Shown one piece after another: positions 6,340-54,007 of a stretch of 64,000 nucleotides of DNA. The first letter of the stretch is position 1. Every line of letters begins with the position of its first letter. Below the pieces are notes generated by a model, which was not told the DNA's origin, searched no databases, and saw nothing but the letters and a program-made list of their open reading frames with translations. Source of the stretch: Candidatus Microgenomates bacterium (lineage in GTDB: Bacteria; Patescibacteriota; Microgenomatia; UBA1400; UBA12108); the NCBI GenBank assembly GCA_003576945.1, contig QEVC01000002.1, positions 5,792-69,791 of the forward strand, written 5' to 3'. The translations under genes and the position numbers were made by a program.

Positions 6340-6344
6340 ATTTG

Positions 6345-6418
6345 AGATGCGAGAAGGATTCGAACCTCCGTCTTTTCGTTTTACAACGAAATGCCTGAAC
6401 CAACTCGGCTATCGCATC
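6345..6418 (-). tRNA. atypical tRNA-like gene (GUA anticodon = Tyr-like, short variable arm, 8-nt anticodon loop or 6-bp stem)
   Basis: Reverse complement gives a perfect 7-bp acceptor stem (GATGCGA/TCGCATC) and T-arm GGAGG-TTCGAAT-CCTTC. The anticodon arm is an 18-nt perfect hairpin TTTCGTTGTAAAACGAAA, one nt longer than canonical. No encoded CCA. Confidence 0.6.
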
Positions 6419-8618: not shown

Positions 8619-8779
8619 GTAACTACTTTACCACGTCGCGAACTTAACTTGCAGTCGTATCTCACAACAAAAAAATATTCGCAGAGCGGGTAGCTCGAGA
8701 CATAGATCAAAATTTCAGCAGAAATTTATGATCGGTTTTTTGTGTGATGGTACGACGAAAAGTTAAGAGTGAGCGACTC

Positions 8780-12558: not shown

Positions 12559-12564
12559 ATGTTT

Positions 12565-12584
12565 CAGACAATCAGAAAACTCAG
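12565..12584. repeat. left arm of a perfect 20-bp inverted repeat (cagacaatcagaaaactcag) bracketing the four-helix-bundle gene; TCAGA-periodic flank
   Basis: Exact reverse complement of 13024-13043. TCAGA recurs every 8-16 nt through 12572-12628. Confidence 0.8.
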
Positions 12585-12604
12585 AACATCGGATTATCAG
12601 ATAT

Positions 12605-13000
12605 TCAGAATTTATCAGATCTCCAGATAGAATGTAATTTGTTGATCCTTTTTGAGAGTGTTTTATACTTAATAGCGAGATTCTCGATATCTTTTTGTAG
12701 TCTAGGTACTGCGTGATATATCGTTCTAAAGTGAGTTACCACTTCATCACTTGATCCAATGGAAATTTTCAAAAATCGCTTAAACTCTTTTTCGGATGAT
12801 CTTTTTGCAAACCCTTCAGAAATATTGGCAGAAATAGACTTAGCAGCACGTTTTAATTGGTTAATTGAGTCAGTCTCAGATTTAGGTAATTTTCGCAACA
12901 GGTCATATAAATGCTTAATTAAATCTAATGACTCTGTATACACACTAAGATCAGTGACGTCTCTTATCATTAACTTATAATACCAAATATTCTGGTTCAC
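12605..13000 (-). CDS. four-helix-bundle protein (23S rRNA intervening-sequence protein / Avd-like family)
   Basis: 'QLKRAAKSISANISEGFAKRSSEKEFKRFLKISIGSSDEVVTHF' is typical of TIGR02436. The track start is GTG; an ATG at 12968-12970 would give 121 aa. Confidence 0.8.
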   Translation of the reverse strand: MNQNIWYYKLMIRDVTDLSVYTESLDLIKHLYDLLRKLPKSETDSINQLKRAAKSISANISEGFAKRSSEKEFKRFLKISIGSSDEVVTHFRTIYHAVPRLQKDIENLAIKYKTLSKRINKLHSIWRSDKF

Positions 13001-13023
13001 CGACTCTCAGGCTCACTGATTCT

Positions 13024-13043
13024 CTGAGTTTTCTGATTGTCTG
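13024..13043. repeat. right arm of the 20-bp inverted repeat (ctgagttttctgattgtctg)
   Basis: Reverse complement of 12565-12584. The flank 13000-13043 is TCTG-periodic. Confidence 0.8.
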
Positions 13044-13048
13044 GAATG

Positions 13049-24465: not shown

Positions 24466-27400
24466 TCAATCTCTCTTCATCATTGCTAATACTAGCGTGG
24501 TTCCAAGCAAAACAAAACCTAAATACTGCAATAATTGCGGCCAGTAAAAAATAATCACAATTCCGTTCCCCTCATTATTCATAATTCCTGATTCATTATT
24601 CACAACAAACCCATTTGCCCACCCATCCACTTTCAGATGTCTTAAACTTGCTACATGATACTTGATACTTGATACATTCAACCCCACCCATCCTTCATCA
24701 TACCCTTGACTCAGCCTGATAAGCCCATCACCTCGCACTCCCAACCCATACAACCAAGTCCCCGTCTTTTTTACATGTGTGATCCTAAGGTCTGATCTTG
24801 TAGGTTGCAAATCATTATCATAACCTACGAGGTCAGACCTTATAGGTACCAGCTTTGCCCTCACGATCTTCTCAATGGGTGCGTATCTAACCTCTACTTT
24901 ATCTACCCTATTCTCCGCATACTGCCCAAAACTGCGCGTCTCGATATTGAGGCTGTAGTGTCCATCCCAATCCCAAGGTAGTAGCGAGAATGTCTGATCA
25001 AACTTGCCCCTGTCCATCAGATATTCGATATCATTCCGTTCACTACCTGTATTGTAAAGAAAGAATTTGAGACTCCTACCAGCTTTATTTTCTCCCATTA
25101 CTCTCATTAGATGTGGTACACGGGTAAACGGCCCGCCCATGACTACGTAGTCACATACTGCACCTCTCCCGTCTGCCATATAGGTCGATCTTTCTTTCTC
25201 AGCGCTACCCCGCTTCAATACGTCACAATTTCCGATACTCCCCTGCCCTTGCCGGCCAAAGTCATAGATAAAGGCTTCTCCCATTATTTCTATACTTAAT
25301 TCATCATTCAAAATACTAAATACCTGTTCTCTCCTATATTCCTCCCATTCCTCTCCCTCACTCACTCTAGCGTAGAAATAGCTCTCCCCCTCTTTAGGCT
25401 TTTCCTCTCCCAAAAATCTCGGACCCTTTTCTCCGTTTATATAATATGCTGGCAACGCTTCATTATTAACAAAATCTACTCGAACGATCTCTCCCACCCC
25501 CCACCCCGGTATCACCAGCTCCCGTGATCCAAGGTCTGATCTTGTAGCGTTTACTCCTACGAGGTCAGACCTTAAAGTTATTCCTTTGTCTCCATACTCT
25601 ATATTTTTTATTTCCTCCCGCATCAGCTGCGCAAACGGATAAACTACTGTCCCCTGCGATTCAAGATCTGATCTTGTAGGTTGCAAGTCTTTCTCAAAAC
25701 CTACGAGGTCAGACCTTCCAGGTTGTTCCACATATGTTCCCATCTCCGCATAAATCACATCCTTTCTCGTTTTCAAAGTATCTCCCTCCACCCACATATA
25801 GCTCTCCGGCACCGTGATCCCAAGGTCTGATCTTGTAGGGTTTACTCCTACGAGGTCAGACCTTACAGGAATTTTCCAAACACTCAAAAAGTTCTCATTA
25901 AACACTCTCTCCCACCCTAGCTCTTGTGCCAGCTCTTTTGTCTCCTCTATTCGCAAAATATCTTTGTCCTGCCCCGGCGCAATCACGCTCTCATCTAGTA
26001 GCACATATCGCACGTCATACTTCTGCAAAACTTTTTGTACTTGCCCACTGCACCCTGCACCCTGCGCTCCAAGGTCTGATCTTGTAGGGTTTACTCCTAC
26101 GAGGTCAGGCCTTACAGGACAAGCATAAATTGCAGTCGCAAACTCGTTATAAAACCCCTCGTTATACGGACTCCACGCATAAAATGCCTTGTCTAGAATT
26201 GGCATATTTATCCCTTGCCATACAAACCCACTCCCCCTGTATCCCCACTCATTCAGCTCCCATCCCCAAAAATCCTGTTGCGGTAGTTGTAGCACTCTCC
26301 CCGATTCCACACTATCCATAAATCGAAACAACTCTTGATATTCACTCGGTAACTCTACCCGCAATTTATCGTAAAGCAACTCGCCACGAAAAACTGGAAA
26401 GCTCCACATAATCACCACTCCCACCAATCCAGCAGTGATTCCAAATCTAACCACCCCCCACTTCATCCATCCTAAAACCATCGTCAGTCCATATCCCATC
26501 ATCACAGCGAGACTCATCGCATAAACTAGTGAAAATTTCGTAAAAGCAAATCGGAATATCGCGTCATAATACGGCACATACTCCCTTAGTGTCCACCCCA
26601 CACTCGATACTATGGGGATTCTCAGTCCCAGGTTACACAAAGCGAACAACCACACTACTCCTATCGCCGCCACCCTCCACTCTCTCTTCCACATCGCCAT
26701 GACCCATCCCAACAAACCAGTTCCCACCACTCCCCATCCTATATAAAAAATCCACGCCTGCCCCCACCACTCTATCCACTGTGGCATCTGCAACCCAAAC
26801 TTTCCATCTCCTACATAATCTTCAAACGCTAGTGAGAATCCCTCCATCGCCACCACACTCCGAATGTCACCATATTCGGCGTTGCGCAGCACCACCTCAC
26901 TATTAGATAGTTGGCTCGATTTCGAGGCATTTATCCCTGCCGCACTCGTCATCGCCGAATAAATGTATGGCAGTCCCCAAAAAGCATTCACGGCAAATAG
27001 CACTACTACCACATTTCGCACTCGCTTCCACCCCACCCTCCAGTGTTTCATCCAATAGCTAACAATCAAAGTAAAAATGGTGAGACCGTACACAATAAAA
27101 ATGGTGGGCACGTGTGCTTGTGGGATCGCCAAAAAGTTAATGATCAGGAGTCGCCACAACTTCTTTCGCTCTGGTGCGTCAAAATAAGTCAGTAGTGCCC
27201 ATACTCCCCACGGCAGTGCCGCAAAGTGCATGACAAATAGCTCTAGCGGCTGATAAAACATCTGCACTGTATAGGGGTTCAGCATATAAAACAGTGCCGT
27301 AACTATTGCCACTCCCTGCCTCACTCTCTCCTGCTTACGCAGGATATACATGCTGAGAACATACATCCCCACGCCACCCATTAGGTGCATGAGTAGCACA

Positions 27401-27678
27401 TAAGCGTAACGAACATAGTTAGTAGGTAGTACGAGCGACAACAGCCACGCATACCCCACATGCACCAGGTTCGCCGCGTGCGCCATGGCATCCGTCATCC
27501 CTAGCCCCCGGTATTCTTGCCACACCGATGATAAATCACGCCACAAATGTGTCGAAAATGCCAGTTCTGGCTGTGTACTATCCCAGCCGATTAGCCACGT
27601 CCCAGTGCGGACATTCGCCCACACTATTCCCACTTCAACGAGAACTAATAAAAATACTCCCCACCACCGCTTGAGCAT
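24466..27678 (-). CDS. large polytopic membrane glycosyltransferase-like protein (GT-C/YfhO/ArnT-like N-terminus, soluble C-terminus) carrying five in-frame palindromic repeat units
   Basis: 1070 aa. About 14 predicted TM helices in the N-terminal ~430 aa. C-terminal part contains five copies of 'RSDLVG(xx)..PTRSDL'. Adjacent GT2 gene. Confidence 0.6.
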   Translation of the reverse strand: MLKRWWGVFLLVLVEVGIVWANVRTGTWLIGWDSTQPELAFSTHLWRDLSSVWQEYRGLGMTDAMAHAANLVHVGYAWLLSLVLPTNYVRYAYVLLMHLMGGVGMYVLSMYILRKQERVRQGVAIVTALFYMLNPYTVQMFYQPLELFVMHFAALPWGVWALLTYFDAPERKKLWRLLIINFLAIPQAHVPTIFIVYGLTIFTLIVSYWMKHWRVGWKRVRNVVVVLFAVNAFWGLPYIYSAMTSAAGINASKSSQLSNSEVVLRNAEYGDIRSVVAMEGFSLAFEDYVGDGKFGLQMPQWIEWWGQAWIFYIGWGVVGTGLLGWVMAMWKREWRVAAIGVVWLFALCNLGLRIPIVSSVGWTLREYVPYYDAIFRFAFTKFSLVYAMSLAVMMGYGLTMVLGWMKWGVVRFGITAGLVGVVIMWSFPVFRGELLYDKLRVELPSEYQELFRFMDSVESGRVLQLPQQDFWGWELNEWGYRGSGFVWQGINMPILDKAFYAWSPYNEGFYNEFATAIYACPVRPDLVGVNPTRSDLGAQGAGCSGQVQKVLQKYDVRYVLLDESVIAPGQDKDILRIEETKELAQELGWERVFNENFLSVWKIPVRSDLVGVNPTRSDLGITVPESYMWVEGDTLKTRKDVIYAEMGTYVEQPGRSDLVGFEKDLQPTRSDLESQGTVVYPFAQLMREEIKNIEYGDKGITLRSDLVGVNATRSDLGSRELVIPGWGVGEIVRVDFVNNEALPAYYINGEKGPRFLGEEKPKEGESYFYARVSEGEEWEEYRREQVFSILNDELSIEIMGEAFIYDFGRQGQGSIGNCDVLKRGSAEKERSTYMADGRGAVCDYVVMGGPFTRVPHLMRVMGENKAGRSLKFFLYNTGSERNDIEYLMDRGKFDQTFSLLPWDWDGHYSLNIETRSFGQYAENRVDKVEVRYAPIEKIVRAKLVPIRSDLVGYDNDLQPTRSDLRITHVKKTGTWLYGLGVRGDGLIRLSQGYDEGWVGLNVSSIKYHVASLRHLKVDGWANGFVVNNESGIMNNEGNGIVIIFYWPQLLQYLGFVLLGTTLVLAMMKRD
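24787..26113. repeat. five palindromic hairpin units (arms aggtctgatcttgtagg / cctacgaggtcagacct; spacers 7 or 19 nt) inside the 24466-27678 ORF
   Basis: Units at 24787-24842, 25531-25573, 25653-25708, 25822-25865, 26071-26113. Arms form a 17-bp stem with G-U pairs as RNA. All unit lengths keep the frame. Confidence 0.85.
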
Positions 27679-30636: not shown

Positions 30637-30955
30637 AGCTATGCTCGATTTATGAGCAAATCATTGCATACGACTATCTTGATAGACGACAGCAACTTCT
30701 TTTTCAAGCTCAAGGGTCTCAAAATCAAAAATCTCCTCAACTTCGACTTTGGCAAATTTCCCGAGTTTCTCGCAGGTGACAAACCAGTCTTCCAAGTTAT
30801 GCTTTAACCCAAAACACCCAGCACTCCACTCTCTTAACCAAAAGTGACATCCTACAATTTATTTAGTTTTTAAAGAACACCTGCTAGTAGCAGGTACACG
30901 TCTTCAAGGTCGGACCTTGAAGGCACATATCCACCACTGTGATATACTCAAATTT

Positions 30956-33126: not shown

Positions 33127-33840
33127 TTAAGAAATTAACTCTGCATACACAATAATCCTGATCGGCGACACTAAAAATTTACAGGTATACAATATCAAAT
33201 CACTCGAGTAATCACTGATCTCTGTCCCCTCCTCCACCTTTGTCACTTTGTAGGTATAGCGGTGTTGATTCCAGGTCAAAACCACACTCTCTCCCACTTT
33301 CACATCTGGCAAGTTGTAAAAAGAATGTTTTTCCCGATAATCCTGAGTCCAGGCGGTATAGCCAAACCGGTGCGCCGCCAAAATTATGGGTCGTCCTCCA
33401 CTAGACTCGGGAGTCGCAAACTCAGGCACCCGCCAAACCCCTTTGCGTAATGCTTCTTCATACGCTGAGCTAGATGCCTCCCACACTGTGGTATCTATAC
33501 CGAGAGTCGGTACAGCCAAGTATTGACCCTCAGGCAGGCTAGGATCTCGGGCAATGCTCGGCTTAGGTTCATCTGGTACCGCAACAGGCTCTTGCCTGAT
33601 AAACGCTGCCTCACTCTCATCACCAGTCTTGACTAGCGCTGTCGAAAGTAGCTTGGTCGTACTCGGCACGACTGTGTAATAAAGATAAAGAAAAACTGGG
33701 TATGAGGAAAGTAATGCAAAAATCCCCCAGAGTCCAATCGCCATCCCAGCAAAAACTAACGCGAGGGTCGACGGTCCACGTTTGTAAATAATCTGATATT
33801 TTCTCTCTCTGCGCCTCTTCCACAATGTCCAGTAGTCCAT
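33127..33840 (-). CDS. sortase (transpeptidase)
   Basis: N-terminal TM, catalytic His 'ILAAHRFGY', catalytic Cys 'LILYTCK'. Confidence 0.75.
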   Translation of the reverse strand: MDYWTLWKRRRERKYQIIYKRGPSTLALVFAGMAIGLWGIFALLSSYPVFLYLYYTVVPSTTKLLSTALVKTGDESEAAFIRQEPVAVPDEPKPSIARDPSLPEGQYLAVPTLGIDTTVWEASSSAYEEALRKGVWRVPEFATPESSGGRPIILAAHRFGYTAWTQDYREKHSFYNLPDVKVGESVVLTWNQHRYTYKVTKVEEGTEISDYSSDLILYTCKFLVSPIRIIVYAELIS

Positions 33841-33845
33841 GAGTA

Positions 33846-34484
33846 CTATTGTAGCTCAAATCGCTCTGCAACTACTCTCCATATCTCCTCCGAAACCTTT
33901 TCGATACTTTGGTTCGCATCTATTACTACAAAACGCTTCGGCTCACTTTCTGCTAGACTAAGATAAGCCTCGCGCACTTTTGTATGAAAGTCTTTACTTT
34001 TCAAATCTAGCCGGTCATTTTTATCGCTTGCCGCCCTCCTAGCTAGCCCTACTTCGACCGACACATCAAGCAAAAAAGTAATATCCGGATAAGTATCTTT
34101 GGTTGATAGTCCATTCAATTCCTTAATTATTTCGACTCCAAAATCACGCACAATTCCCTGATACACAATTGACGAGTCACTAGTCCGATCCGCGAGCACC
34201 CACTTACCAGTTTCAAGAGATGGTAATATCAACTCTCGATATACCTGAGCTCTTGCTGCCTGAAATAAAAGTACTTCAGTGGTATATGCCATGCCCATGT
34301 TTTTGATTGATAGCACTACCTCACGGATTTGTTCCGAAATCGCTGTTCCCCCTGGTTCACGAATTAGAACAATCTTTTTCCCCAGCTCTTCGAGCTTTTC
34401 GCGCAAACGGACTATTTGGACACTCTTACCAGCTCCTTCTCCACCCTCAAAACTAATAAAAACACCAGGCGAATTGTTTATCAT
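33846..34484 (-). CDS. tmk: thymidylate kinase
   Basis: 'ISFEGGEGAGKS' P-loop and 'REPGGT'. Start trimmed from 34520. Confidence 0.85.
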   Translation of the reverse strand: MINNSPGVFISFEGGEGAGKSVQIVRLREKLEELGKKIVLIREPGGTAISEQIREVVLSIKNMGMAYTTEVLLFQAARAQVYRELILPSLETGKWVLADRTSDSSIVYQGIVRDFGVEIIKELNGLSTKDTYPDITFLLDVSVEVGLARRAASDKNDRLDLKSKDFHTKVREAYLSLAESEPKRFVVIDANQSIEKVSEEIWRVVAERFELQ

Positions 34485-34545
34485 CACAACATCGTACCTT
34501 AAACTTATGTCACGAGGCAAGATTATCAGAATAGCTTAAACTGCC

Positions 34546-36759
34546 TCAACCGCACACCGCAAAGCCGCACCCATAGCATTTGCGACACCCCTCCTCTATC
34601 GCCAGCTTGCCTCCACAATTGGGGCACTCCGACCCGATCTGGCTGTCTGATTTCTCTGATTTCCTGGTAATCTGAGTTTTCTGGTTGTCTGAATTCTCTG
34701 ACTTTCCCACATTTAGGACTTGCCCCTCTCTACTCCCATCTCGGTATACCGTTATTCCTTTACAGTGTAGTTCAGAGGCTTGATAGAAAACCTTAATCAC
34801 ATCATCCACCGTTGCGGTACTAGGTAAGTTAATGGTTTTTGACACCGCATTATCCGTGTATTTCTGAAAAGCTGCGAGCATGGCCACATGGTCCTCAGCA
34901 CTTAAATCCATCGCAGTGACAAAAACATCTCTAATCTCTTTGGGAATACTACTTATATGTTTAATACTGCCGTGTCGCGCGATCTCATCCATGAGTTCAG
35001 TCGAATATAGACCATTTACATGTTTGATCGCTTTAACCAGATCAGTGTTTACTTCGGGTAGGGTGTATTGACCCATGCTTTTTCTAAAGTAAGCGAGCGC
35101 AAAATGTGGCTCTATTCCCCCACTCGCATTCGTCATCATGCTAATAGTCCCAGTCGGTGCGATCGTCGTCACTGTCGCATTGCGAAAATGTTTATAGCCT
35201 CGCTTCTGCCAAAGAGAACCTTTGAAATTGGGGAAACTCCCCTTTTCCTTACCCAAGGCCGAAGATGTTTCCCAGCCAATTTTTTGCACAAATTTCATGA
35301 GTTTCTCAGCTAAGCTTAGTGCTTCTTTTGAGTTGTATGGAATATGCAATTTAACCAACATGTCAGCCCAGCCCATGACCCCTAAGCCTATCTTTCTATT
35401 TCCCCGTACAACTTCTGCCACTTTTTTAAGCGGGTACTCACAGACAGAGACCACATCATCTAACATTCGAACTGCAACGCGCACCGTCTCCTCTAACTTA
35501 CCCCAATCAATTCCCATTCCGGATTCACTGCTATACGGATTCACGGATTTACTATCATCTTTTACATGCACCGCCAAATTAATGCTTCCCAAATTACACG
35601 CTTCGTAAGACAAAAGTGGTTGCTCTCCACATAGGTTAACCGTCTCTAGTATTCCCACGTGTGGTGTGGGGTTATATTTATTAATCTCATCAACAAAAAT
35701 CAAACCTGGATCTCCATTTTTCCAAGCCATTCTGGCTGCTTCTTCCAGTATTCCTCGAGCCGAAACTCGTGCCGTTATCGCCCCATTACGTGGATTAATC
35801 AACTCCCACTCCTCATTATTTTTTGCTGCCTCCATAAATTTGTGGGTCACCGCGAGCGAGTAGTTAATATGGGGCAAGTTTGAGCCCGACTCTTTACAGT
35901 GAATAAAATCAATCACATCGGGGTGTGACACCGGCAGCGTTACCATATTTCCACTTCGTCTCTTGCCTGCCTGCAAATAGATATCTGAGGCATCGTTCAC
36001 GAGCTGCATGAGAGCTACTGGCCCACAAGCCGCACCCGAGGTCGTACTCACCCGATCATCCTTAGGTCGAATATGTCCAAAGGTAAACCCAACTCCTCCT
36101 CCATATTTTTTGAGTATCGAAGATTCTTTGAGAGATTCAAAGATCCCCTCGATATCGTCTGGCATCGGCATCACAAAACAGTTAGCCAGCTGATTATTGG
36201 GAGTCCCCGAGTTCGCGAGCGTCCTCCCACCAGGCATAAACCTCAGTTCTCGCATAATATGTTCAAACTTTTCTTGCCAAAGCTTTTTATCCTTCTTTTC
36301 GGCACTCGCCAAAAACTTGGCAGTTCGAGCAAACATTTCACCTACCGACTCCACTACTTCCCCGCTCTCATCTTTCCTAATATATTTTTCTCTAGCGACC
36401 GTTAATGCGTTTAGCGATAGTCCAACCTCATCATGAACTCCGAGTGCATGTTTTGCTGCTTCAACCTGTCTCTTCTTCTCTCTGTTTAAGATGTAGGCTT
36501 TCGCTGTTTTGTAATGCGATTTCTCAAGGAGTACTCGCTCCACCATATCCCCAATCTCCGCGCTCGTTACCCGCCTGATCCTCCCATACTGTTTTTTTAG
36601 CCGCTCCACCGCCTCATGCGCTAGTTCAACTGCTAGCTTATGATCTGTCCCACCAACATCTTGTGCCGCGAGGAAGATCGAGTCTGCTATCTTACCCACA
36701 TCTAATATTTGCTCACTCTCGTTCCGCTTTAAAACCGTAACCTTATTTGTTTTTTGCAT
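34546..36759 (-). CDS. nrdJ: adenosylcobalamin-dependent (class II) ribonucleotide reductase with ATP-cone and C-terminal zinc ribbon
   Basis: ATP-cone N-terminus, 'ANCFVM', 'NLCGEQPL', C-terminal 'CPNCGG..CRKCYGCG'. The linker 'SENSDNQKTQITRKSEKSDSQ' is encoded by a TCAGA-periodic repeat (34637-34706). An ACGGATTC repeat lies at 35521-35556. Confidence 0.85.
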   Translation of the reverse strand: MQKTNKVTVLKRNESEQILDVGKIADSIFLAAQDVGGTDHKLAVELAHEAVERLKKQYGRIRRVTSAEIGDMVERVLLEKSHYKTAKAYILNREKKRQVEAAKHALGVHDEVGLSLNALTVAREKYIRKDESGEVVESVGEMFARTAKFLASAEKKDKKLWQEKFEHIMRELRFMPGGRTLANSGTPNNQLANCFVMPMPDDIEGIFESLKESSILKKYGGGVGFTFGHIRPKDDRVSTTSGAACGPVALMQLVNDASDIYLQAGKRRSGNMVTLPVSHPDVIDFIHCKESGSNLPHINYSLAVTHKFMEAAKNNEEWELINPRNGAITARVSARGILEEAARMAWKNGDPGLIFVDEINKYNPTPHVGILETVNLCGEQPLLSYEACNLGSINLAVHVKDDSKSVNPYSSESGMGIDWGKLEETVRVAVRMLDDVVSVCEYPLKKVAEVVRGNRKIGLGVMGWADMLVKLHIPYNSKEALSLAEKLMKFVQKIGWETSSALGKEKGSFPNFKGSLWQKRGYKHFRNATVTTIAPTGTISMMTNASGGIEPHFALAYFRKSMGQYTLPEVNTDLVKAIKHVNGLYSTELMDEIARHGSIKHISSIPKEIRDVFVTAMDLSAEDHVAMLAAFQKYTDNAVSKTINLPSTATVDDVIKVFYQASELHCKGITVYRDGSREGQVLNVGKSENSDNQKTQITRKSEKSDSQIGSECPNCGGKLAIEEGCRKCYGCGFAVCG
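34637..34706. repeat. TCAGA/TCTGA-periodic element half-copy inside nrdJ
   Basis: Contains ctgagttttctggttgtctg (34672-34691), a 19/20 match to the four-helix-bundle flanking IR. Confidence 0.7.
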
Positions 36760-36857
36760 AATTCAAAATACTCGATACTAAATACTGTGACTCAGTCTAT
36801 CCATCCTACCGGACAAAACCCAACTCCTGCAATATTACAAAGTGGTACAGTAGAAGC

Positions 36858-36985
36858 TTTCAGACAACCGGAATACTCGGAAAGTCAGAAATCCAGATAT
36901 TCGGAGATCCAGATTTTCCGCTTATCTGATTATCCGACACTCTGGTTCACTGAGTTTTCTGATTGTCTATTACTCTCTGATTTTT
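36858..36985. repeat. TCAGA/TCTGA-periodic imperfect hairpin element (ORF-less copy) at the topA 3' end / nrdJ upstream region
   Basis: Left half is CAGA-periodic, right half TCTG-periodic. ctgagttttctgattgtct at 36951-36969 is identical to 13024-13042. The topA stop codon (36930) lies inside it. Confidence 0.7.
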
Positions 36986-38897
36986 CAAGTCGCCACGCTG
37001 CCCACTTACACTCAGGATATTTCTCGCATCCGTAAAACTTCCCCTTCCGACTCTTTTTTATCACCACTCTCCCCCCACAGGTCGGACATAGATGGGTTCC
37101 TGCATACTCTACATACTGCGCTTTATAATCACACTCTGGGTAGCGATCACATGAGAGGAATTTCCCAAACTTCCCTGTCCTAATTATCACTTCACCTTGG
37201 CTGCATTTAGGACATTTCTCGCCTGTTGTCTCAACCGCCACTTTAACTCTAGATCCTGTCTCTTCCACTTTTTTAACAGTCTCGTTCATCGGAGTCCAAA
37301 AAGAGCTCACTACCTCGACCCATTTCTTTTTTCCATCCGCCACTGCGTCTAGATCCGATTCCATCCGGGCCGTAAATTCATACGCCATCACATTATCAAA
37401 GTTGGTGGTAAGAAACTCAACGACTGCTATGCCCACTGCCGTGGGGTGAAATCTCTTTTCTTCTTTGGTTACATAACCTCTGTCTTGAATCGTGCTAATA
37501 ATCGCCGCATAAGTGCTCGGCCGCCCTATCCCTCGCTTCTCAAGTTCCTTAATTAAGCCTGCTTCGCTATACCGCGCGGGCGGTTGGGTGAATTTTTGGA
37601 TGGGTTCTACCTTAATTAAAGACAAGACTTCACCACTTGTCACTTGCGGCAAAAATACATCATCCGTGCTCTTCCCCAGTCTCATATACCCATCAAAGAT
37701 CATTCGCTTGCCGTCGGCTTTAAGCTCGTAGTTACCAGCCCCAACCAAGATAGTTGTCTTATCATATCGGGCGTCCTGCATTTGACACTGCAAAAAACGA
37801 TTTCGGATTAACTCGTAGAGCTTTTTATCTCTTCCCTCTAGCTCGGGTGATGCTTTGAGGTTAGTCGGACGGATCGCCTCGTGGGCTTCCTGTGCACTCG
37901 CGGCTTTGGTTTTATAGACTCTAGGTGCTGCAGGTAAATACTCAGCACCATAATTCTTTTCGATATAGCTTCTCGCTGCCACGACCGCTTCGGTTGCGAG
38001 ATTATAAGAATCAGTACGATGGTAGGTTATTAGACCGCGCTCATACAAGGATTGGGCTATTTGCATGGTCTGCTTAGCTGAATACCCAAACATGTTAGAG
38101 CCCGCGCGCTGCAAAAGTGATGTTGTAAATGGGGGTTGTGGTGAGCTCTTTTGCTCTTCGTTACTTACATTTAACACCTTATAAGTTGCACCCTCGAGAT
38201 CTGCAACTACTTTCCCCGCCATCTCCCCGTTCTTAATATTTGCAGTCTTACCGTCAATTTTTACGAGCTCTACCTTCAGTTCACCTTTCGCCGTAACTTT
38301 AAGATTCGCAAATATTTCCCAATATTCTTCAGGTTTAAATGAGGTAATCTCTTTTTCCTTTTCTACAATTAATCGCACCGCCACCGATTGCACTCTTCCC
38401 GCCGAGAGACCTCTCCTTACCTTCTTCCACAAAACAGGAGACAAAGTATAGCCCACCAGACGGTCTAGCACCCGCCTTGCCTGCTGCGCATTCACCAGGT
38501 CCATGTTGACGACCCCAGGATGAGACAATGCCTCAAGAATTGCAGTTTTCGTAATTTCATGGAAAGTTACGCGCTTAAATTCCTTCTTTGCTCCGCGCTC
38601 AGAAAGCAAGTGTTGCACATGATAAGAAATCGCTTCACCCTCACGGTCCGGATCGGTTGCAAGGTAGATTACTTTTGCATTTTTAGCTAAAGCCTTAAGT
38701 TCTGCAACTCGCTTTTTCTTAGAGGATAGTACTTGGTAGTTCGGTTCAAAGCCATGCTCTACATCAATTGCGAGCCCGCCGCCCTTTTCCGGCAGATCCC
38801 GCACATGCCCCATCGATGCTTCAATTTTATAGTCATTGCCAAGAAACCGTGTTAGTGTCTTGGCTTTGGTAGGTGACTCAACAATAACTAAATCCAT
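36930..38897 (-). CDS. topA: DNA topoisomerase I
   Basis: Toprim 'MDLVIVESPTKAKT', catalytic region, C-terminal C4 zinc ribbons. The last ~18 aa 'KSESNRQSENSVNQSVG' are encoded by the repeat element. Confidence 0.9.
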   Translation of the reverse strand: MDLVIVESPTKAKTLTRFLGNDYKIEASMGHVRDLPEKGGGLAIDVEHGFEPNYQVLSSKKKRVAELKALAKNAKVIYLATDPDREGEAISYHVQHLLSERGAKKEFKRVTFHEITKTAILEALSHPGVVNMDLVNAQQARRVLDRLVGYTLSPVLWKKVRRGLSAGRVQSVAVRLIVEKEKEITSFKPEEYWEIFANLKVTAKGELKVELVKIDGKTANIKNGEMAGKVVADLEGATYKVLNVSNEEQKSSPQPPFTTSLLQRAGSNMFGYSAKQTMQIAQSLYERGLITYHRTDSYNLATEAVVAARSYIEKNYGAEYLPAAPRVYKTKAASAQEAHEAIRPTNLKASPELEGRDKKLYELIRNRFLQCQMQDARYDKTTILVGAGNYELKADGKRMIFDGYMRLGKSTDDVFLPQVTSGEVLSLIKVEPIQKFTQPPARYSEAGLIKELEKRGIGRPSTYAAIISTIQDRGYVTKEEKRFHPTAVGIAVVEFLTTNFDNVMAYEFTARMESDLDAVADGKKKWVEVVSSFWTPMNETVKKVEETGSRVKVAVETTGEKCPKCSQGEVIIRTGKFGKFLSCDRYPECDYKAQYVEYAGTHLCPTCGGRVVIKKSRKGKFYGCEKYPECKWAAWRLEKSESNRQSENSVNQSVG

Positions 38898-38931
38898 ATG
38901 TGATTAAAATACGCGCTTACTGCACCTGGTG

Positions 38932-39462
38932 TCAACCAATGATCCTCACAAGCTCAGTCACAACACTATCTATGACACTCTCCATAATCTGTCTCTCTTC
39001 TTGAGTAAAATCCTGCAAGCTGTAGACCATTCCGGGTACTCCCTTGTTACCCTTAACCTGTCTATTCTCGACCCCTACTCTCACGTTCCAATACTTATTC
39101 GTCCCCAGCGACTGCTCCACGGACAACAGTCCATTATGTACTTTTGGCGCTTTACCATGCTGAATTTTGTAACTGCCTAGTGGGATATCGAGATCATCGT
39201 GAATAATATATATATCTTCACTCTTTATCTTGTAAAAGCGCGATATCGCTAACACTGCCTTACCACTTTCGTTCATGAAAGTAGTAGGTTTTATTAAAAT
39301 AGACTTATCACTCTCACCCACTTCGCCAAAGAATTTTTTATTTACACTCCATCCGTCGATTTTCAATCGCTCACCGATCCTCTCAGCCACCACAAAACCT
39401 ATGTTATGTCGATTATTCTTATATTTATCACCTGGGTTACCAAGTCCAACTATGAGTTTCAT
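38932..39462 (-). CDS. pth: peptidyl-tRNA hydrolase
   Basis: 'MKLIVGLGNPGDKYKNNRHNIGF'. Confidence 0.9.
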   Translation of the reverse strand: MKLIVGLGNPGDKYKNNRHNIGFVVAERIGERLKIDGWSVNKKFFGEVGESDKSILIKPTTFMNESGKAVLAISRFYKIKSEDIYIIHDDLDIPLGSYKIQHGKAPKVHNGLLSVEQSLGTNKYWNVRVGVENRQVKGNKGVPGMVYSLQDFTQEERQIMESVIDSVVTELVRIIG

Positions 39463-45283: not shown

Positions 45284-46327
45284 TTAGTTCTCAAACATCT
45301 CTTCTACCGGGAAAAACAGTGTCTCTGCAATACTGGGTGTATCTGCAAACAAAGCAACTAACCGATCCACTCCCACTGCGATTCCACCAGCTTCTGGCAT
45401 CCCGAGCTTTAATGCCTCAATAAAATCATGATCCATCGGATACTCTGTCTTACCCAGCTTCTTCCTTTTCACTAGATCAGCCTTACACCTAGCCTCTTGC
45501 TCCTGCCAATCGGTAAGCTCCGAAAAACAATTACCTAACTCATATCCCGCTAGATAAACCTCCCACCGCTCCGCAAACCGGGGATCCTTGGCTTTCTTGG
45601 CTAGCGCAGCTTGAGAAACGGGAAAGTCATACATTATAGTCGGACCAGCCACTCCGAGTTTTGGTTCTATTTCGTTTGCGATAATCTGATTCCACATCTC
45701 CTCCCAGGTACTCTCATCATCTACCTGGTAACCCTTCTTTTTACTTGCTTCTTTTAACTTGTCCCGATCAAGCATCGTCTCAACATCTATCCCCGCATAC
45801 CTTTCAAATGCCTCGGCGACACTTATCCGCTCCCACGGCGCTTGCAGCGAATACTCTTTACCCTGGTATTCCAAAACGGATTCACAGCCAGAAGGCTTTA
45901 CGGCTTTACGAATATGTTCCATTAGTTCTTCAAAATCTTGCGCAACTGTCATATAGTCACCTGGAGTGTGATACCACTCGAGTATCGTAAACTCTGGGTT
46001 ATGTCGACTAGACCTCCCTTCCCCATTACGGAAGGATTTGGTAATGGTAAAAATAGATCCAGAACCTGCCGATAAGAGTTTTTTTAATGCGAATTCGGGT
46101 GAAGATGGCAAAAAACTAACCCATTTACGACCATGGTCATCGACTAACTGAGTTTTAAATACCTCTAGAAATGGCTCGGTCGAGGGTGTGGGTAGTAAGA
46201 GTGGCACCTCCGCCTCATGAAATCCACGACCCTTAAAAAAGGCTCGGATGGCATCAATCACCCGCTCTCGCACCCAGTACTGCTGCCACAAATCTGGGTG
46301 CTGTTTCAGTTTTTGAAATGTTTTCAT
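45284..46327 (-). CDS. epmA: EF-P--(R)-beta-lysine ligase (LysRS class II paralogue, GenX/PoxA)
   Basis: Class II core 'FHEAEVPLL...FRNGEGRSSRHNPEFTILEWY...GGIAVGVDRLV', no anticodon-binding domain, 347 aa. efp is nearby. Confidence 0.8.
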   Translation of the reverse strand: MKTFQKLKQHPDLWQQYWVRERVIDAIRAFFKGRGFHEAEVPLLLPTPSTEPFLEVFKTQLVDDHGRKWVSFLPSSPEFALKKLLSAGSGSIFTITKSFRNGEGRSSRHNPEFTILEWYHTPGDYMTVAQDFEELMEHIRKAVKPSGCESVLEYQGKEYSLQAPWERISVAEAFERYAGIDVETMLDRDKLKEASKKKGYQVDDESTWEEMWNQIIANEIEPKLGVAGPTIMYDFPVSQAALAKKAKDPRFAERWEVYLAGYELGNCFSELTDWQEQEARCKADLVKRKKLGKTEYPMDHDFIEALKLGMPEAGGIAVGVDRLVALFADTPSIAETLFFPVEEMFEN

Positions 46328-47661: not shown

Positions 47662-49632
47662 ATGCAAATCCTCATCCAGACCATCCTCCACCTCTCTGTC
47701 ATCTTTATTCCCCTCACCTTTACCACCCTCAACTCCGAGCTCTTTGAGTTCCCCAAGTTCATCCTCCTCCTCTCTGCTACCCTCACCATCCTCACCGCCG
47801 CCATAGTAGATTACTTACATAATCGTCATTCTCAGAGATATACGGATTTACGGGTTAACGGATTTACGAGTCCCATTAGTCTCGCCGTACTTGCAATCCT
47901 CGCCACCCAGCTCTTATCCACTATCTTTAGCATCAGTCCCTATACCAGTTTTTGGGGTTACTATAGTCGCTTCCACCAAGGTCTCTTAACTACCATTTGT
48001 TACACCATTCTCTACTTTGCCGCTTGCCTCTACCTGGATAAAGAAAGTGTGCAAAAACTTATAAAAGTATCTGTAGGAACAGCTTTTTTTATTAGCCTAT
48101 ATGCCATCTTACAGCGCCTGGGAATCGACAAATCGCTCTGGATCCAGGACGTGGTCAACCGCCCTTTTAGCTCGCTCGGCCAACCCAACTGGCTCGCTGC
48201 CTACCTCCTCCCCAATCTATTTTTATCTCTCTATCTTATTAGAGATTTTCCAAAATCACTTACACTGCGTACCGCCTACTGCGTCATACTCATTGGCCTC
48301 CTCCTCACCAAATCTCGCTCCGGTTTTATTGCCCTCGCACTTAGCTATCCACTTTATTGGCTCCTCCTCGCTCGCCAGTTCTCCTTCACCAAAATAAAAC
48401 AACAACTATTTCTTTCTACTTTCTACTTTCTACTTGTCACTCTTTTTGTCGGCACTCCCTACACTCCCAAGTTAATAGATCTCCTAAAATCTCCTAAGCA
48501 AGAAATTACTAGCTCCCAATCAACCGGCACCCAACTCGAAAATGGAGGGACTGAAAGTGGGGATATTCGTCGCATAGTCTGGTCCGGCGCTCTCAAGTTA
48601 ATTCAAAAACACCCCATGATCGGGACAGGTCCCGAAACCTTTGCTTATACCTATTATTGGCAGAGACCAGTCGCTCACAACAATACTTCAGAGTGGGACT
48701 ATCTTTACAACAAAGCCCACAACGAATATCTAAACATTGCGGCAACCACTGGCGTGCTCGGTCTCCTTGCCTACCTCTACTTTCACTATGCTGTCTTTCT
48801 TAAAAGTACAGAATTAGTTGTTAAATCCAAAAAAATCAATCAAGAAGAAGATAATAATTTGCGCAGTCTCTACCCTGTCTTAGGTGCCACCATTATTGGT
48901 TTCACCATCACCAACTTTTTTGGCTTCTCCGTGATCCCAGTCTATCTCTTGACGACCCTTATTGCCGCGCTGCCCCTATCTGTAAATCAACAACTAGATA
49001 AAGGCAAAAACGACAAGAATCTAGTCCTCCTAATCTTTCTCCCTCTCATCTACCCCGCCCACCTATTCTTCACCGATATTAGCTTTGCTAAAGGGAAAGC
49101 CTATTTAGATGCCAATCAACCTGGGAATGCTCTCCCACTCCTCCAGAAGGCCGTAAATAGTAGGCCAGGATTAGACTTGTATCATAGTACCGTCGGCGAA
49201 GCCTACGCCCAACTAGGCCAAACAGAACTCGCTGTCAAAGAAGCCGAGCTAACCAAGAAGCTCAATCCCTACCATCTCAACTTCTACAAGAGCCGAGCAA
49301 AAATCTATCTCACCCTATCCACCAACGACTCCCAATATTACCAGCCTGCCGCGAGAGAACTCGAAGAGGCCCGCACCCTCGCCCCCACCGACCCCAAACT
49401 CTACTACAACCTAGGCCTAATCTATACTCGCCTCGGCAATAATGATCAAGCCATAACCCAGTTTAAGCAAGCCATCTCCCTCAAGCCCAACTACGAGAGT
49501 CCCTACTATGCCCTCACTCTCCTCTACGAGCAAACTGATCAAAAGAAACTTATACCTGATCTACTCTCAAGCGCCAAAGAAAACCTGGCTACATATAGTG
49601 GCGCTTTAAACGAAAAAATTTTACTCTACTAA
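47662..49632 (+). CDS. O-antigen ligase/polymerase-family membrane protein with C-terminal TPR repeats
   Basis: Polytopic; 'KSRSGFIALALSYPLYW' Wzy_C-like. C-terminal TPR-like 'YYNLGLIYTRLGNNDQAITQFKQAISLKPN'. ACGGATTT tandem repeat in frame at 47839-47870. Confidence 0.65.
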   Translation: MQILIQTILHLSVIFIPLTFTTLNSELFEFPKFILLLSATLTILTAAIVDYLHNRHSQRYTDLRVNGFTSPISLAVLAILATQLLSTIFSISPYTSFWGYYSRFHQGLLTTICYTILYFAACLYLDKESVQKLIKVSVGTAFFISLYAILQRLGIDKSLWIQDVVNRPFSSLGQPNWLAAYLLPNLFLSLYLIRDFPKSLTLRTAYCVILIGLLLTKSRSGFIALALSYPLYWLLLARQFSFTKIKQQLFLSTFYFLLVTLFVGTPYTPKLIDLLKSPKQEITSSQSTGTQLENGGTESGDIRRIVWSGALKLIQKHPMIGTGPETFAYTYYWQRPVAHNNTSEWDYLYNKAHNEYLNIAATTGVLGLLAYLYFHYAVFLKSTELVVKSKKINQEEDNNLRSLYPVLGATIIGFTITNFFGFSVIPVYLLTTLIAALPLSVNQQLDKGKNDKNLVLLIFLPLIYPAHLFFTDISFAKGKAYLDANQPGNALPLLQKAVNSRPGLDLYHSTVGEAYAQLGQTELAVKEAELTKKLNPYHLNFYKSRAKIYLTLSTNDSQYYQPAARELEEARTLAPTDPKLYYNLGLIYTRLGNNDQAITQFKQAISLKPNYESPYYALTLLYEQTDQKKLIPDLLSSAKENLATYSGALNEKILLY

Positions 49633-53977: not shown

Positions 53978-54007
53978 ACATTATTCAAAATACTAAATAC
54001 AAAATAC

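What the first reader, a model, noticed from the sequence alone, without database searches (positions are those of the whole stretch)
34637..36985. TCAGA/TCTGA-periodic repeat family reused as coding sequence: the nrdJ linker and the topA C-terminal tail
ctgagttttctg(a/g)ttgtctg occurs three times, at 13024-13043, 34672-34691 and 36951-36969. All three sit in stretches where TCAGA or TCTGA recurs every 8-10 nt. The copy at 36858-36985 is an imperfect hairpin with no ORF, CAGA-rich on one side and TCTG-rich on the other. It supplies the last ~18 codons and the stop of topA ('KSESNRQSENSVNQSVG'). The half-copy at 34637-34706 encodes the Ser/Glu/Gln-rich linker 'SENSDNQKTQITRKSEKSDSQ' between the nrdJ catalytic body and its C-terminal zinc ribbon. 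The same element family flanks the four-helix-bundle gene. This looks like a miniature inverted-repeat element domesticated into ORFs and intergenic processing sites.
Basis: seen in the sequence. Interest (0 to 1): 0.7.

Follow-up and report, generated by a model that had tools for sequence, protein, structure and literature searches.

The report
rRNA-intervening-sequence-like element arms translated inside genes
The repeat is real: it is the periodic stem arm of a small selfish cassette of the kind known from 23S rRNA "intervening sequences", and in this tiny-genome (CPR) bacterium it sits between ordinary genes and has been read into the tail of topoisomerase I and a linker of ribonucleotide reductase.

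Summary
The 20-mer occurs five times, against none expected. CAGA/TCTG arrays with an 8-nt period occur only at three loci in the 64 kb.

The three loci are one family:
- A, 12559-13048: an intact cassette. A PF05635/TIGR02436 four-helix-bundle gene ("23S rRNA intervening-sequence protein", IVP) lies between inverted ~60-nt arms.
- B, 36858-36985: an ORF-less hairpin of two arms.
- C, 34628-34706: one complete arm, in register, read as the nrdJ linker.

Relatives have empty sites. Their rseP-cofD spacers are 2-19 nt, and their topA ends ...KLPxKPxVAEx*. An nrdJ 97% identical outside the linker carries an unrelated linker.

In 61 of 68 metagenome loci, relatives of this IVP have the same inverted periodic flanks. 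Some of these sit inside 16S/23S rRNA. An Azospirillum 23S IVS and cassettes in Nostoc, Picosynechococcus and Riemerella share the plan. The Coxiella IVS, which RNase III cuts, has GACAGAT heptamers.

So this is an IVS-type element outside rRNA, not a demonstrated MITE. The CAGA strand is richer in open reading frames than background; the TCTGA strand stops nearly all frames. That explains which copies survive in ORFs. RNase III processing and any domesticated role are inferred, not shown.

The parts
12559..13048 (-). Element A: intact IVS-type cassette (arm, IVP gene, arm). It fills the whole rseP(stop 13049-13051)/cofD(ATG 12556-12558) spacer.
   Evidence: (I4). Relatives have 2-nt (L110) and 19-nt (L109) spacers, or an unrelated 156-nt insert (L108), at this junction.
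12983..13046 (-). A, proximal (5') arm in IVP sense. It is a CAGA-strand array whose tip reads TTCCAGACAATCAGAAAACTCAGAG.
   Evidence: (D6, D7). The tips of the two A arms form a 22+3-bp duplex of -39.0 kcal/mol, against -12.9 +/- 3.5 for shuffles.
12605..12970 (-). IVP gene, 121 aa from the ATG at 12970 (ORF listing extends it to a GTG at 13000). [quoted passage not shown] Its last codons (SIWRSDKF*) and its TGA stop lie in the distal arm.
   Evidence: PF05635 E = 4e-21. TIGR02436 E = 6.7e-22. PDB 2GSC E = 1.4e-8. Metagenome relatives align over residues 1-121.
12562..12632 (-). A, distal (3') arm. It has 8 units of TCAGAnnn on the + strand, which is the TCTGA strand in IVP sense.
   Evidence: (D17, I2-I4).
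36858..36985 (-). Element B: ORF-less two-arm hairpin (arms 36858-36913 and 36917-36985). It lies at the 3' end of topA, upstream of the conserved nrdJ leader.
   Evidence: (D6 and D17, each 75% to the A arms). It is absent in L024, where the topA-nrdJ spacer is 57 nt. L025/L120 and L119 carry other inserts there.
36930..36985 (-). The last 18 codons and the TAA stop of topA, read from the CAGA strand of B's right arm. They replace the ancestral ~11-codon tail.
34628..34706 (-). Element C: one complete arm, tip to inner end and in register with the A and B arms. It is read in CAGA sense as nrdJ residues ~685-708 (linker before the zinc ribbon).
   Evidence: (I3, D7). AlphaFold2 gives pLDDT below 50 for residues 675-707.
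35513..35552 (-). Array of a second arm family, (ACGGATTY)n, read as nrdJ residues 403-416 (SKSVNPYSSESGMG). Most orthologues have G(T/S)NGDSK here.
   Evidence: (D1). The same units form the inverted arms of another IVP cassette in relative L024. pLDDT is below 50 for residues 403-413.
45870..45909 (-). Another copy of the (ACGGATTY)n family, inside the tRNA-synt_2-like ORF 45284-46327 (RKAVKPSGCESVLE). Further copies lie in ORFs at 2020-2059, 47828-47875 and 51409-51456.
   Evidence: (D1). The segment differs locally from the L022 orthologue (EISRVTGGDG--KILNY) in an otherwise near-identical protein.

Best explanation
The TCAGA/TCTGA-periodic repeat is the stem arm of an IVS-type selfish cassette. 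This is the same kind of element that interrupts 23S and 16S rRNA genes: a PF05635/TIGR02436 four-helix-bundle gene (IVP, also called S23p) between two inverted arrays of 7-9-nt units. In this Microgenomates (CPR) genome the family lives outside rRNA.

The three copies:
- Element A is an intact cassette wedged between the rseP stop and the cofD start.
- Element B is an ORF-less two-arm derivative, comparable to the short ORF-less IVSs of rRNA. It landed in the last codons of topA.
- Element C is a single full arm occupying the hypervariable nrdJ linker.

Why copies can sit in ORFs (shown from sequence). The CAGA strand is richer in open reading frames than background. It encodes Ser/Glu/Asp/Asn/Gln/Lys/Arg-rich peptides with an 8-residue period, because three 8-nt units make 24 nt. 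The TCTGA strand carries TGA in every unit. With an 8-nt period that TGA rotates through all three frames within 24 nt. So a gene that reads into a hairpin gains at most one arm's worth of hydrophilic tail and then stops. Only CAGA-sense solo arms survive inside genes, and only in disordered loops, linkers and tails.

RNA level (inferred by homology). The paired arms give a dsRNA stem of 20 bp or more. In rRNA IVSs RNase III cuts such a stem. Here it would cut the rseP-IVP-cofD and topA-nrdJ co-transcripts at the arms.

How the cassette and its arms move is not known.
For: Family identity:
- The five arms align in register, from the tip (Y)CAGACAAYCAGAAAACTCAG to the inner CCAGAT.
- The 20-mer has 0 expected by chance, and arrays occur only at A, B and C.

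Cassette nature:
- The gene between the arms is PF05635, TIGR02436 and matches 2GSC.
- In 61 of 68 metagenome loci encoding relatives of this protein (40-100% identity), the upstream flank is complementary to the downstream flank with z of at least 4. The arms are periodic arrays.
- The period is 8(-9) nt in the window's clade and 7 nt in more distant clades.

Link to rRNA IVS:
- Relatives L100 and L086 lie inside LSU and SSU rRNA. They are accompanied by ORF-less hairpins of the same units.
- Azospirillum L118 is a 23S IVS with GACAGAG/GACGGAG arms.
- The Coxiella IVS has a 28-bp terminal stem cut by RNase III, and GACAGAT heptamers of variable number upstream of S23p (PMC4990558).
- CPR rRNA insertions encode 23S_rRNA_IVP at scattered sites (PMC11270868).

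Presence or absence between relatives:
- rseP/cofD spacers are 2 or 19 nt in relatives.
- An IVP cassette in L024 lies between two convergent stop codons that are 3-4 nt apart in the window and in L022.
- The topA tail and spacer differ between relatives.
- The nrdJ linker and loop differ between proteins 97% identical elsewhere.

Frame logic: open frames per 60 nt are 1.74 of 3 on the CAGA strand, 0.46 on the TCTGA strand and 1.34 in background.

Tolerated sites: pLDDT is below 50 at nrdJ 403-413 and 675-707.

Stem: the A tips give -39.0 kcal/mol against -12.9 +/- 3.5 for shuffles. Sense-strand arm duplexes are slightly stronger than antisense in 33 of 49 cassettes (p = 0.019).
Against: - None of the window copies is in rRNA, so the defining location of an IVS is not met.
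- No RNase III gene or signature was seen in the 64 kb or in the fetched loci, and there are no transcript data. Processing is purely inferred.
- Hairpin B is weak (z = -2.55).
- Within the window's clade, a cassette's own two arms match no better than arms of different cassettes (self 32.6 against cross 30.9; own partner ranks best in 2 of 35). Complementarity is therefore generic to the unit motif. There is no covariation evidence for a specific RNA stem.
- No target-site duplication or clean junction was found for B or C.
- The CAGA-type nrdJ linker is shared, at the same length and position, with a relative whose nrdJ is 88% identical (L023). C may be an old allele shuffled by recombination rather than a recent insertion.
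- Four of eight plasmid-borne IVP genes lacked clearly inverted arms. One of them has direct heptamer arrays on both sides.
Confidence: 0.72

Rival explanations
1. This is a classical MITE: a non-autonomous deletion derivative of an insertion sequence. A transposase encoded elsewhere recognises the terminal inverted repeats and mobilises it.
For: The element has terminal inverted repeats, an ORF-less 128-nt copy and a solo arm. Presence and absence differ between close relatives. Copies sit in compact intergenic spacers.
Against: The full-length partner carries a four-helix-bundle gene, not a transposase. No target-site duplication is visible at A, B or the L024 cassette. The arms are degenerate periodic arrays without cassette-specific termini pairing. 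Homologous cassettes are rRNA intervening sequences, which are not known to transpose by a DDE or other transposase.
Confidence: 0.1
2. The periodic arms are binding arrays for the IVP protein itself. IVP is a pentameric four-helix-bundle relative of the DGR accessory protein Avd. The protein would recognise the 7-9-nt units on RNA or DNA for autoregulation, RNP formation or mobilisation. Solo arms and hairpins elsewhere, including those in topA and nrdJ mRNA, would then be trans targets. This can coexist with the best explanation.
For: Unit sequence and period change with the IVP clade. Examples are TCAGAAAA, TCGGTTT, GACAGAG, ACGGATTT, GGGAAAA, GGAGATAA and AAGGTTYA. The constraint acts on the unit motif rather than on specific base pairs. 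Each arm has 5-13 units. The tip CAGAAAACTCAGA is conserved across genomes. The X. campestris homologue is reported as a toroidal homopentamer (PMC4990558, citing Lin 2006).
Against: Co-inheritance of gene and arms as one unit gives the same co-variation without any binding. ORF-less copies persist without a nearby IVP. In Coxiella S23p appears not to be made and is decaying (PMC4990558). No binding data exist for any family member.
Confidence: 0.25
3. The coding copies arose in place. Low-complexity Ser/Glu/Gln linkers and tails expanded by replication slippage, and they resemble the intergenic repeats only by composition.
For: The nrdJ linker is hypervariable in every orthologue, and many linkers are low-complexity. 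Array copy number varies in known IVSs (PMC4990558).
Against: There is exact or near-exact 20-mer identity with 0 expected by chance. Unit order is the same along the whole ~60-nt arm in A, B and C. An 8-nt period is not what selection on a peptide repeat would produce. The topA tail continues straight into the complementary arm of a hairpin.
Confidence: 0.03

Closest known systems
IVP/S23p-bearing intervening sequences of 23S rRNA (Coxiella burnetii helix-45 IVS; Leptospira, Brucella and Azospirillum IVSs)
   Same: They share a small PF05635 four-helix-bundle ORF enclosed by terminal inverted repeats that form a long stem. Tandem CAGA-core units lie in the arm upstream of the ORF (GACAGAT x2-3 in Coxiella, with variable number). 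They are regarded as selfish. Homologues of the window's IVP sit in rRNA IVSs.
   Different: The window copies lie between and inside protein-coding genes, not in rRNA. The arms are longer arrays with an 8-nt period (7-8 units). Parts of the arms are translated. RNase III excision is shown for Coxiella and is not testable here.
Short ORF-less rRNA IVSs (about 100-nt stem-loops in helices 25 and 45 of Salmonella and Campylobacter 23S rRNA; own knowledge and PMC2801512)
   Same: Element B is a ~128-nt stem-loop without an internal ORF, made of the same arms as the ORF-bearing form. In the 23S rRNA locus L100 an IVP-bearing IVS and an ORF-less hairpin of the same units coexist.
   Different: B overlaps the end of a protein gene and supplies its last 18 codons and its stop.
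Rickettsia palindromic elements (RPEs; own knowledge, reviewed in PMC3184786)
   Same: Both are palindromic repeats that persist inside ORFs in frame and are translated as extra surface segments of essential proteins in a reduced genome.
   Different: There is no sequence relation. RPEs are not periodic arrays and have no associated gene. Here only one strand is translatable, and full hairpins terminate translation.
Hepta- and octanucleotide tandem repeat families: cyanobacterial STRRs, and GGGAATC (Xanthomonas) or GGGGAYT (Nostoc) repeats (PMC4692102)
   Same: These are arrays with a 7-8-nt period in intergenic spacers. In Xanthomonas they often occur as convergent inverted pairs (70-75 pairs). 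Plasmid-borne cyanobacterial IVP genes are flanked by such arrays: (GGGAAAA)n in Nostoc and (AAAAGCT)n in Pseudanabaena.
   Different: Those papers do not link the arrays to PF05635 genes. Whether those families are IVS-type arms was not tested here.
MITEs and REP/BIME elements
   Same: They are short inverted-repeat, non-coding derivatives scattered in intergenic spacers, with insertion polymorphism.
   Different: No transposase or RAYT partner, no target duplications and no GTAG/CGTC-type heads were seen. The autonomous-looking form encodes IVP.

Membership tests
IVS-type element (rRNA intervening sequence with IVP/S23p) | Encodes a PF05635/TIGR02436 four-helix-bundle protein | tested here: met
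   Element A scores PF05635 at 75.7 bits (cut-off 33.8), E = 4e-21. It scores TIGR02436 at 77.8 bits (cut-off 24). It matches 2GSC at 1.4e-8.
IVS-type element (rRNA intervening sequence with IVP/S23p) | Terminal inverted repeats that enclose the ORF and can form a stem of 20 bp or more | tested here: met
   Arms 12562-12590 and 13018-13046 are 29 nt long and 90% complementary. The tip duplex has 22+3 bp at -39.0 kcal/mol, against -12.9 for shuffles. The outer stem is present in the MFE fold of the whole cassette.
IVS-type element (rRNA intervening sequence with IVP/S23p) | Located inside a 23S (or 16S) rRNA gene | tested here: not met
   Rfam finds only tRNAs in the window. A lies between rseP and cofD, B between topA and nrdJ, and C inside nrdJ. 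Homologous cassettes L100, L086 and L118 are in rRNA.
IVS-type element (rRNA intervening sequence with IVP/S23p) | Excised from the transcript by RNase III at the stem | not testable with these tools
   There are no transcript data. No RNase III signature motif was found in the sequences held, but these cover only a small part of the genome.
IVS-type element (rRNA intervening sequence with IVP/S23p) | Tandem CAGA-core units in the arm upstream of the ORF (Coxiella GACAGAT) | tested here: met
   for the window; for Coxiella; for Azospirillum.
MITE | Terminal inverted repeats and small size without a coding gene | tested here: met
   Element B is 128 nt with two arms and no internal ORF.
MITE | Target-site duplication flanking the element | tested here: inconclusive
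   No direct repeat is evident at the junctions of A (TAG-CAT|...|AACAT-ATG) or of the L024 cassette. The empty sites available are 12-18% diverged, and B and C replaced sequence rather than simply inserting.
MITE | A related autonomous IS with the same termini that encodes a transposase | tested here: not met
   The only full-length form found, in the window and in 80 related loci, encodes IVP. The whole genome could not be searched.
Rickettsia palindromic element-like in-frame repeat | A repeat copy lies in frame inside an ORF and is absent from orthologues | tested here: met
   The topA tail, the nrdJ loop 403-416, the nrdJ linker allele and the tRNA-synt_2-like protein all show this. This is a resemblance in behaviour only. 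No homology to RPEs is claimed or tested.

The most novel reading that the evidence does not exclude
PF05635 'IVP' genes with their inverted 7-9-nt periodic arrays form one phylum-spanning class of mobile cassette, seen in CPR, Cyanobacteria, Bacteroidota and Proteobacteria. The classical rRNA intervening sequences would be only the best-known landing site. The protein would recognise its own repeat units. Shed arms and hairpins, possibly including orphan families such as cyanobacterial STRRs and the Xanthomonas GGGAATC pairs, would seed new peptide segments and RNA-processing or binding sites in essential genes of reduced genomes.
Probability: 0.3. Interest if true: 0.8.

Novelty: new variant of a known kind. 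Interest (0 to 1): 0.62.

Why it matters
IVSs have been treated as oddities of rRNA genes, and the PF05635 family has had no known function for thirty years. This window shows three things.

- The same gene-plus-periodic-arms unit colonises ordinary operons in a CPR bacterium.
- Its arms have a built-in frame logic: one strand is rich in open frames and the other closes nearly all frames.
- Arm pieces are being written into essential enzymes (topoisomerase I, class II ribonucleotide reductase, an aaRS-like protein) at disordered sites, and they differ between near-identical strains.

This gives a concrete source of rapid protein-segment turnover in very small genomes. It also gives a testable hypothesis for IVP function, namely recognition of its own repeat units. 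Finally it points to a possible origin for unexplained hepta- and octamer repeat families in other phyla.

Tried and rejected
- 19-mer scans. A scan of 185,579 species genomes gave 13 single hits in unrelated taxa, about the number expected by chance. The source genome is not in that collection. A scan of viral contigs gave 2 hits without arrays, which are chance matches.
- Rfam at gathering threshold found no known RNA family at the arms. PADLOC gave no defence-system hit for IVP.
- Covariation. Testing whether each cassette's own arms match best gave a negative result. I therefore do not claim a covarying RNA structure and did not build a covariance model.
- An RNase III signature search in all held sequence found nothing.
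- A neighbour-joining tree of nrdJ timed out. It was replaced by average-linkage clustering.
- Literature searches for a described link between IVP genes and periodic flanks, or for in-frame repeats in CPR, found none. One search was wasted on the ambiguous term 'Avd'.
- A CRISPR-like array and a DGR were considered and dropped. There are no spacers of constant length, and no reverse transcriptase or template/variable repeat pair nearby.
- Cassette orientation relative to neighbouring genes shows only a mild bias: the upstream neighbour is on the same strand in 14 of 21 cases.
Full report
SOURCE AND CONTEXT

The window comes from a CPR bacterium of the Microgenomates/Woesebacteria group. Its nrdJ protein is found unchanged on 22 contigs, including NCBI GCA_024434235.1 (QMIY01000004.1). 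The closest named homologues are Woesebacteria and Microgenomates proteins. G+C content is 44.7%. Genes are tightly packed, with spacers of a few nucleotides.

THE OBSERVATION

The 20-mer CTGAGTTTTCTGRTTGTCTG has five matches. Three are exact: 12565(-), 13024(+) and 34672(+). One has a single mismatch (36950+) and one has three mismatches (36861-). Shuffles give none.

Chains of CAGA-type motifs spaced 7-10 nt occur only at 12565-12627, 13015-13043, 34628-34700, 36861-36913 and 36917-36961. By chance 0-0.27 such chains are expected. Tandem Repeats Finder independently reports period 8 at these places.

The 36850-36995 RNA folds into an imperfect hairpin of -39.6 kcal/mol with z = -2.55, containing 42 pairs of which 6 are G-U.

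ANATOMY OF THE FAMILY

Five arms were written in CAGA sense and aligned, together with the nrdJ linker of a relative. They align in register over about 60 nt. Each runs from a conserved tip, (Y)CAGACAAYCAGAAAACTCAG, through four or five more units to an inner CCAGAT. The nrdJ copy (C) is therefore one complete arm and not an arbitrary fragment.

Element A (12559-13048) has two arms in inverted orientation around a 121-aa gene. That gene is a full-length PF05635 "23S rRNA intervening-sequence protein", TIGR02436 "four helix bundle protein". Its nearest solved structure is X. campestris XCC0516. The tips of A form a 22+3-bp duplex of -39.0 kcal/mol, against -12.9 +/- 3.5 for shuffled partners. 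This stem appears in the fold of the whole cassette. Element B is two arms without the gene.

A starts 3 nt after the rseP stop and ends 5 nt before the cofD ATG.

IS THIS ARCHITECTURE GENERAL?

A metagenome scan with the IVP protein returned 80 loci at 40-100% identity. In 61 of the 68 loci with enough flank, the upstream flank is significantly complementary to the downstream flank (z of at least 4), and the matching stretches are periodic arrays. The loci are not all independent, because some are duplicates.

- In the window's clade (57-100% identity) the units are TCAGAAAA or TCGGAAAA with a period of 8(-9) nt.
- In more distant clades they are TCGGTTT or TCAGTTT, GACAGAG or GACGGAT, and GGAGGAT, with a period of 7 nt.
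- A 40%-identical IVP gene in the syntenic relative L024 is flanked by inverted (ACGGATTT)n arrays. This is the second 8-nt repeat family of the window. All five of its window copies lie inside ORFs, one of them in nrdJ.

The pattern extends outside CPR. Four of eight plasmid-borne IVP genes have clear inverted periodic arms:
- Nostoc, (GGGAAAA)n.
- Picosynechococcus, (GGAGATAA)n, between cmr2 and cmr3.
- Riemerella, (AAGGTTYA)n.
- Azospirillum lipoferum.

Of the other four, Pseudanabaena has direct heptamer arrays on both sides, and three show periodic stretches that are not clearly inverted.

LINK TO rRNA INTERVENING SEQUENCES

Rfam places the Azospirillum locus inside 23S rRNA. It places metagenome locus L100 inside LSU rRNA and L086 inside SSU rRNA. 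In L100 and L086, ORF-less hairpins of the same units lie close to the IVP cassette, within or next to the rRNA gene.

The Coxiella burnetii IVS is described as a 428-nt selfish element with these features (PMC4990558):
- a 28-bp terminal stem;
- excision by RNase III;
- two to three tandem GACAGAT heptamers, variable between strains, upstream of the S23p ORF.

CPR rRNA insertions are reported to encode 23S_rRNA_IVP at scattered sites (PMC11270868). IVP genes have also been noted between cas genes (PMC3936711).

I found no paper that describes the periodic inverted flanks as a general property of the family. I also found none that reports their translation inside proteins. A paper on GGGAATC heptamer arrays in Xanthomonas reports 70-75 convergent inverted pairs and does not mention IVP genes.

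EVIDENCE FOR GAIN, LOSS AND REPLACEMENT

rseP/cofD junction. Relatives with 82-88% identical CofD have spacers of 19 nt (L109) and 2 nt (L110), or an unrelated 156-nt insert (L108). The window has the 490-nt cassette.

An independent filled and empty pair. The L024 cassette lies between the convergent stops of a 223-aa gene and efp. These stops are 3-4 nt apart in the window and in L022.

topA tail.
- The window and L022 end ...WAAWRLEKSESNRQSENSVNQSVG*.
- L024, L025 and L120 end ...WAAWKLP(T/V/A)K(P/S)(V/A)VAE(A/T)*.
- L119 ends ...KLPVLNKSE*.

topA-nrdJ spacer. It is 57 nt in L024. In L025/L120 and in L119 it carries two other unrelated inserts. This spacer is an insertion hot spot, and B replaced the ancestral tail codons rather than inserting cleanly.

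nrdJ. All orthologues have a linker of 0-40 residues before the zinc ribbon, and it is hypervariable. With the linker and loop masked, the window's protein is 97% identical to that of L022. Yet L022 has an unrelated linker (…NPSTSVQTPARRAQDELPNAV…) and the ancestral loop GNNGDSK where the window has SKSVNPYSSESGMG.

Three recurrent linker types are scattered polyphyletically over the nrdJ clusters:
- the CAGA type;
- the 'SRHKQD' type;
- the 'SVNQ' type.

The CAGA linker of L023 (88% identical nrdJ) has the same length and position as the window's. It contains GACAATCAGAAAACTCAGAGAGTCAG, which matches the window's A arm at 25 of 26 bases. C may therefore be an old allele that moves between lineages by homologous recombination. 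The window and L022 show mosaic 75-100% identity along this region.

WHY ARMS CAN BE TRANSLATED

Stop-free frames per 60 nt, out of 3:

| Sequence | Open frames |
|---|---|
| CAGA strand | 1.74 |
| TCTGA strand | 0.46 |
| Window background | 1.34 |

Every TCTGA unit contains TGA. A period of 8 nt (2 mod 3) moves that TGA through all three frames within 24 nt. This fits all four cases:
- nrdJ reads its arm in CAGA sense.
- topA reads its arm in CAGA sense.
- topA stops at a TAA in the loop of B.
- IVP itself stops at the first in-frame TGA of its distal arm.

The encoded peptides are hydrophilic and have an 8-residue period. An AlphaFold2 model of nrdJ (mean pLDDT 79.6) has confidence below 50 at residues 403-413 and 675-707, which are the two array-encoded segments.

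WHAT IS NOT SHOWN

Within the window's clade a cassette's two arms match each other no better than arms of other cassettes. The complementarity therefore comes from the shared unit motif, and there is no covariation support for a particular RNA stem.

Sense-strand RNA duplexes are only slightly stronger than antisense ones (33 of 49, p = 0.019).

No RNase III gene was seen in the sequence available, and no transcript data exist. No target-site duplications were seen. The mechanism of movement is unknown.

'Domestication' is not supported beyond tolerance.

VERDICT

The better name is an IVS-type (rRNA-intervening-sequence-like) cassette family living outside rRNA, with an intact copy, an ORF-less hairpin and a solo arm in this window.

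It is a new variant of a known kind. The element class and its protein are known. New, as far as I could find, are three things:
- its periodic-arm architecture as a general rule;
- its residence in operons of a CPR genome;
- the translation of its arms inside essential enzymes.

Noticed in passing
window 2020-2059, 35513-35552, 45870-45909, 47828-47875, 51409-51456: This is a second 8-nt periodic family, (ACGGATTY)n. All five copies lie inside ORFs and are translated in both orientations (…SVNPYS…ES… or …FTDLR(V/I)N(G/R)FT…). The same units form the inverted arms of an IVP cassette in relative L024 (1006-1047 and 1426-1462).
   Followed up: partly
window 8649-8761; L119 2811-2923; L108 7419-7532: A ~113-nt intergenic element is about 90% identical between the window and two relatives. 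In L119 it sits in the topA-nrdJ spacer instead. It contains a tRNA D-arm-like stretch (reverse complement TAGCTCAGGTAGAGCGAGAC), but no tRNA is called there. It may be a dispersed small element or a small RNA gene.
   Followed up: no
L108 3845-4000; L025 about 1090-1230: Another small inserted element is shared between different intergenic sites of relatives (AAAAAAGCGGTCTRTCTG, hairpin, CAGCGACCTCRATCTCG…CTGCGATA, then a T-run). Rfam at gathering threshold finds nothing there.
   Followed up: partly
nrdJ orthologues P0001-P0120, linker (window residues ~684-711) and loop (~399-418): Several other peptide families recur polyphyletically at the same two nrdJ sites. Examples are AVKALSRHKQDESANAV, VSKSVNQLVRKSVNP, NPKSEIRNPKQIRNSKFEYPNGTE, EPNTPGVKGSHTPGVS and KESQIKNSQILKLE. 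This suggests further repeat families being written into these segments across Microgenomates.
   Followed up: partly
window 25292-25323, 36754-36785, 51072-51103, 53976-54007: An A/T-rich motif, ATTCAAAATACTAAATAC (with 7-nt ATACAAA/ATACTAA units), occurs in these four stretches. At 36754-36785 it abuts the nrdJ start codon (36759, minus strand). It may be a shared 5' leader or promoter element.
   Followed up: no
window 36786-36850 and the homologous leaders in L024, L025, L119 and L120: Two blocks upstream of nrdJ, TTCTACTTTGTAATATTGC and TGTCCGGTAGGATGGA, are conserved in all relatives whatever is inserted upstream. They are candidate nrdJ regulatory sites (for example NrdR-box-like). This was not tested.
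   Followed up: no
window 6344-6418 (-): ARAGORN calls a tRNA with a four-base anticodon (gtaa) and an undetermined amino acid. Rfam scores it as a tRNA at 58 bits.
   Followed up: no
window 24787-26118, 30902-30923, 51522-51543: Palindromic AAGGTCTGATCTTGTAGG…CCTACGAGGTCAGACCTT units are repeated many times inside the 1070-aa ORF 24466-27678. A perfect 22-nt palindrome, CTTCAAGGTCGGACCTTGAAGG, occurs at two intergenic sites.
   Followed up: no
window 33800-39000 against L022 7760-12740: Nucleotide identity between the window and its closest relative is mosaic. It is 96-100% across the 3' half of topA, hairpin B and the 5' part of nrdJ, and 75-90% elsewhere. This suggests recent recombination between lineages.
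   Followed up: partly
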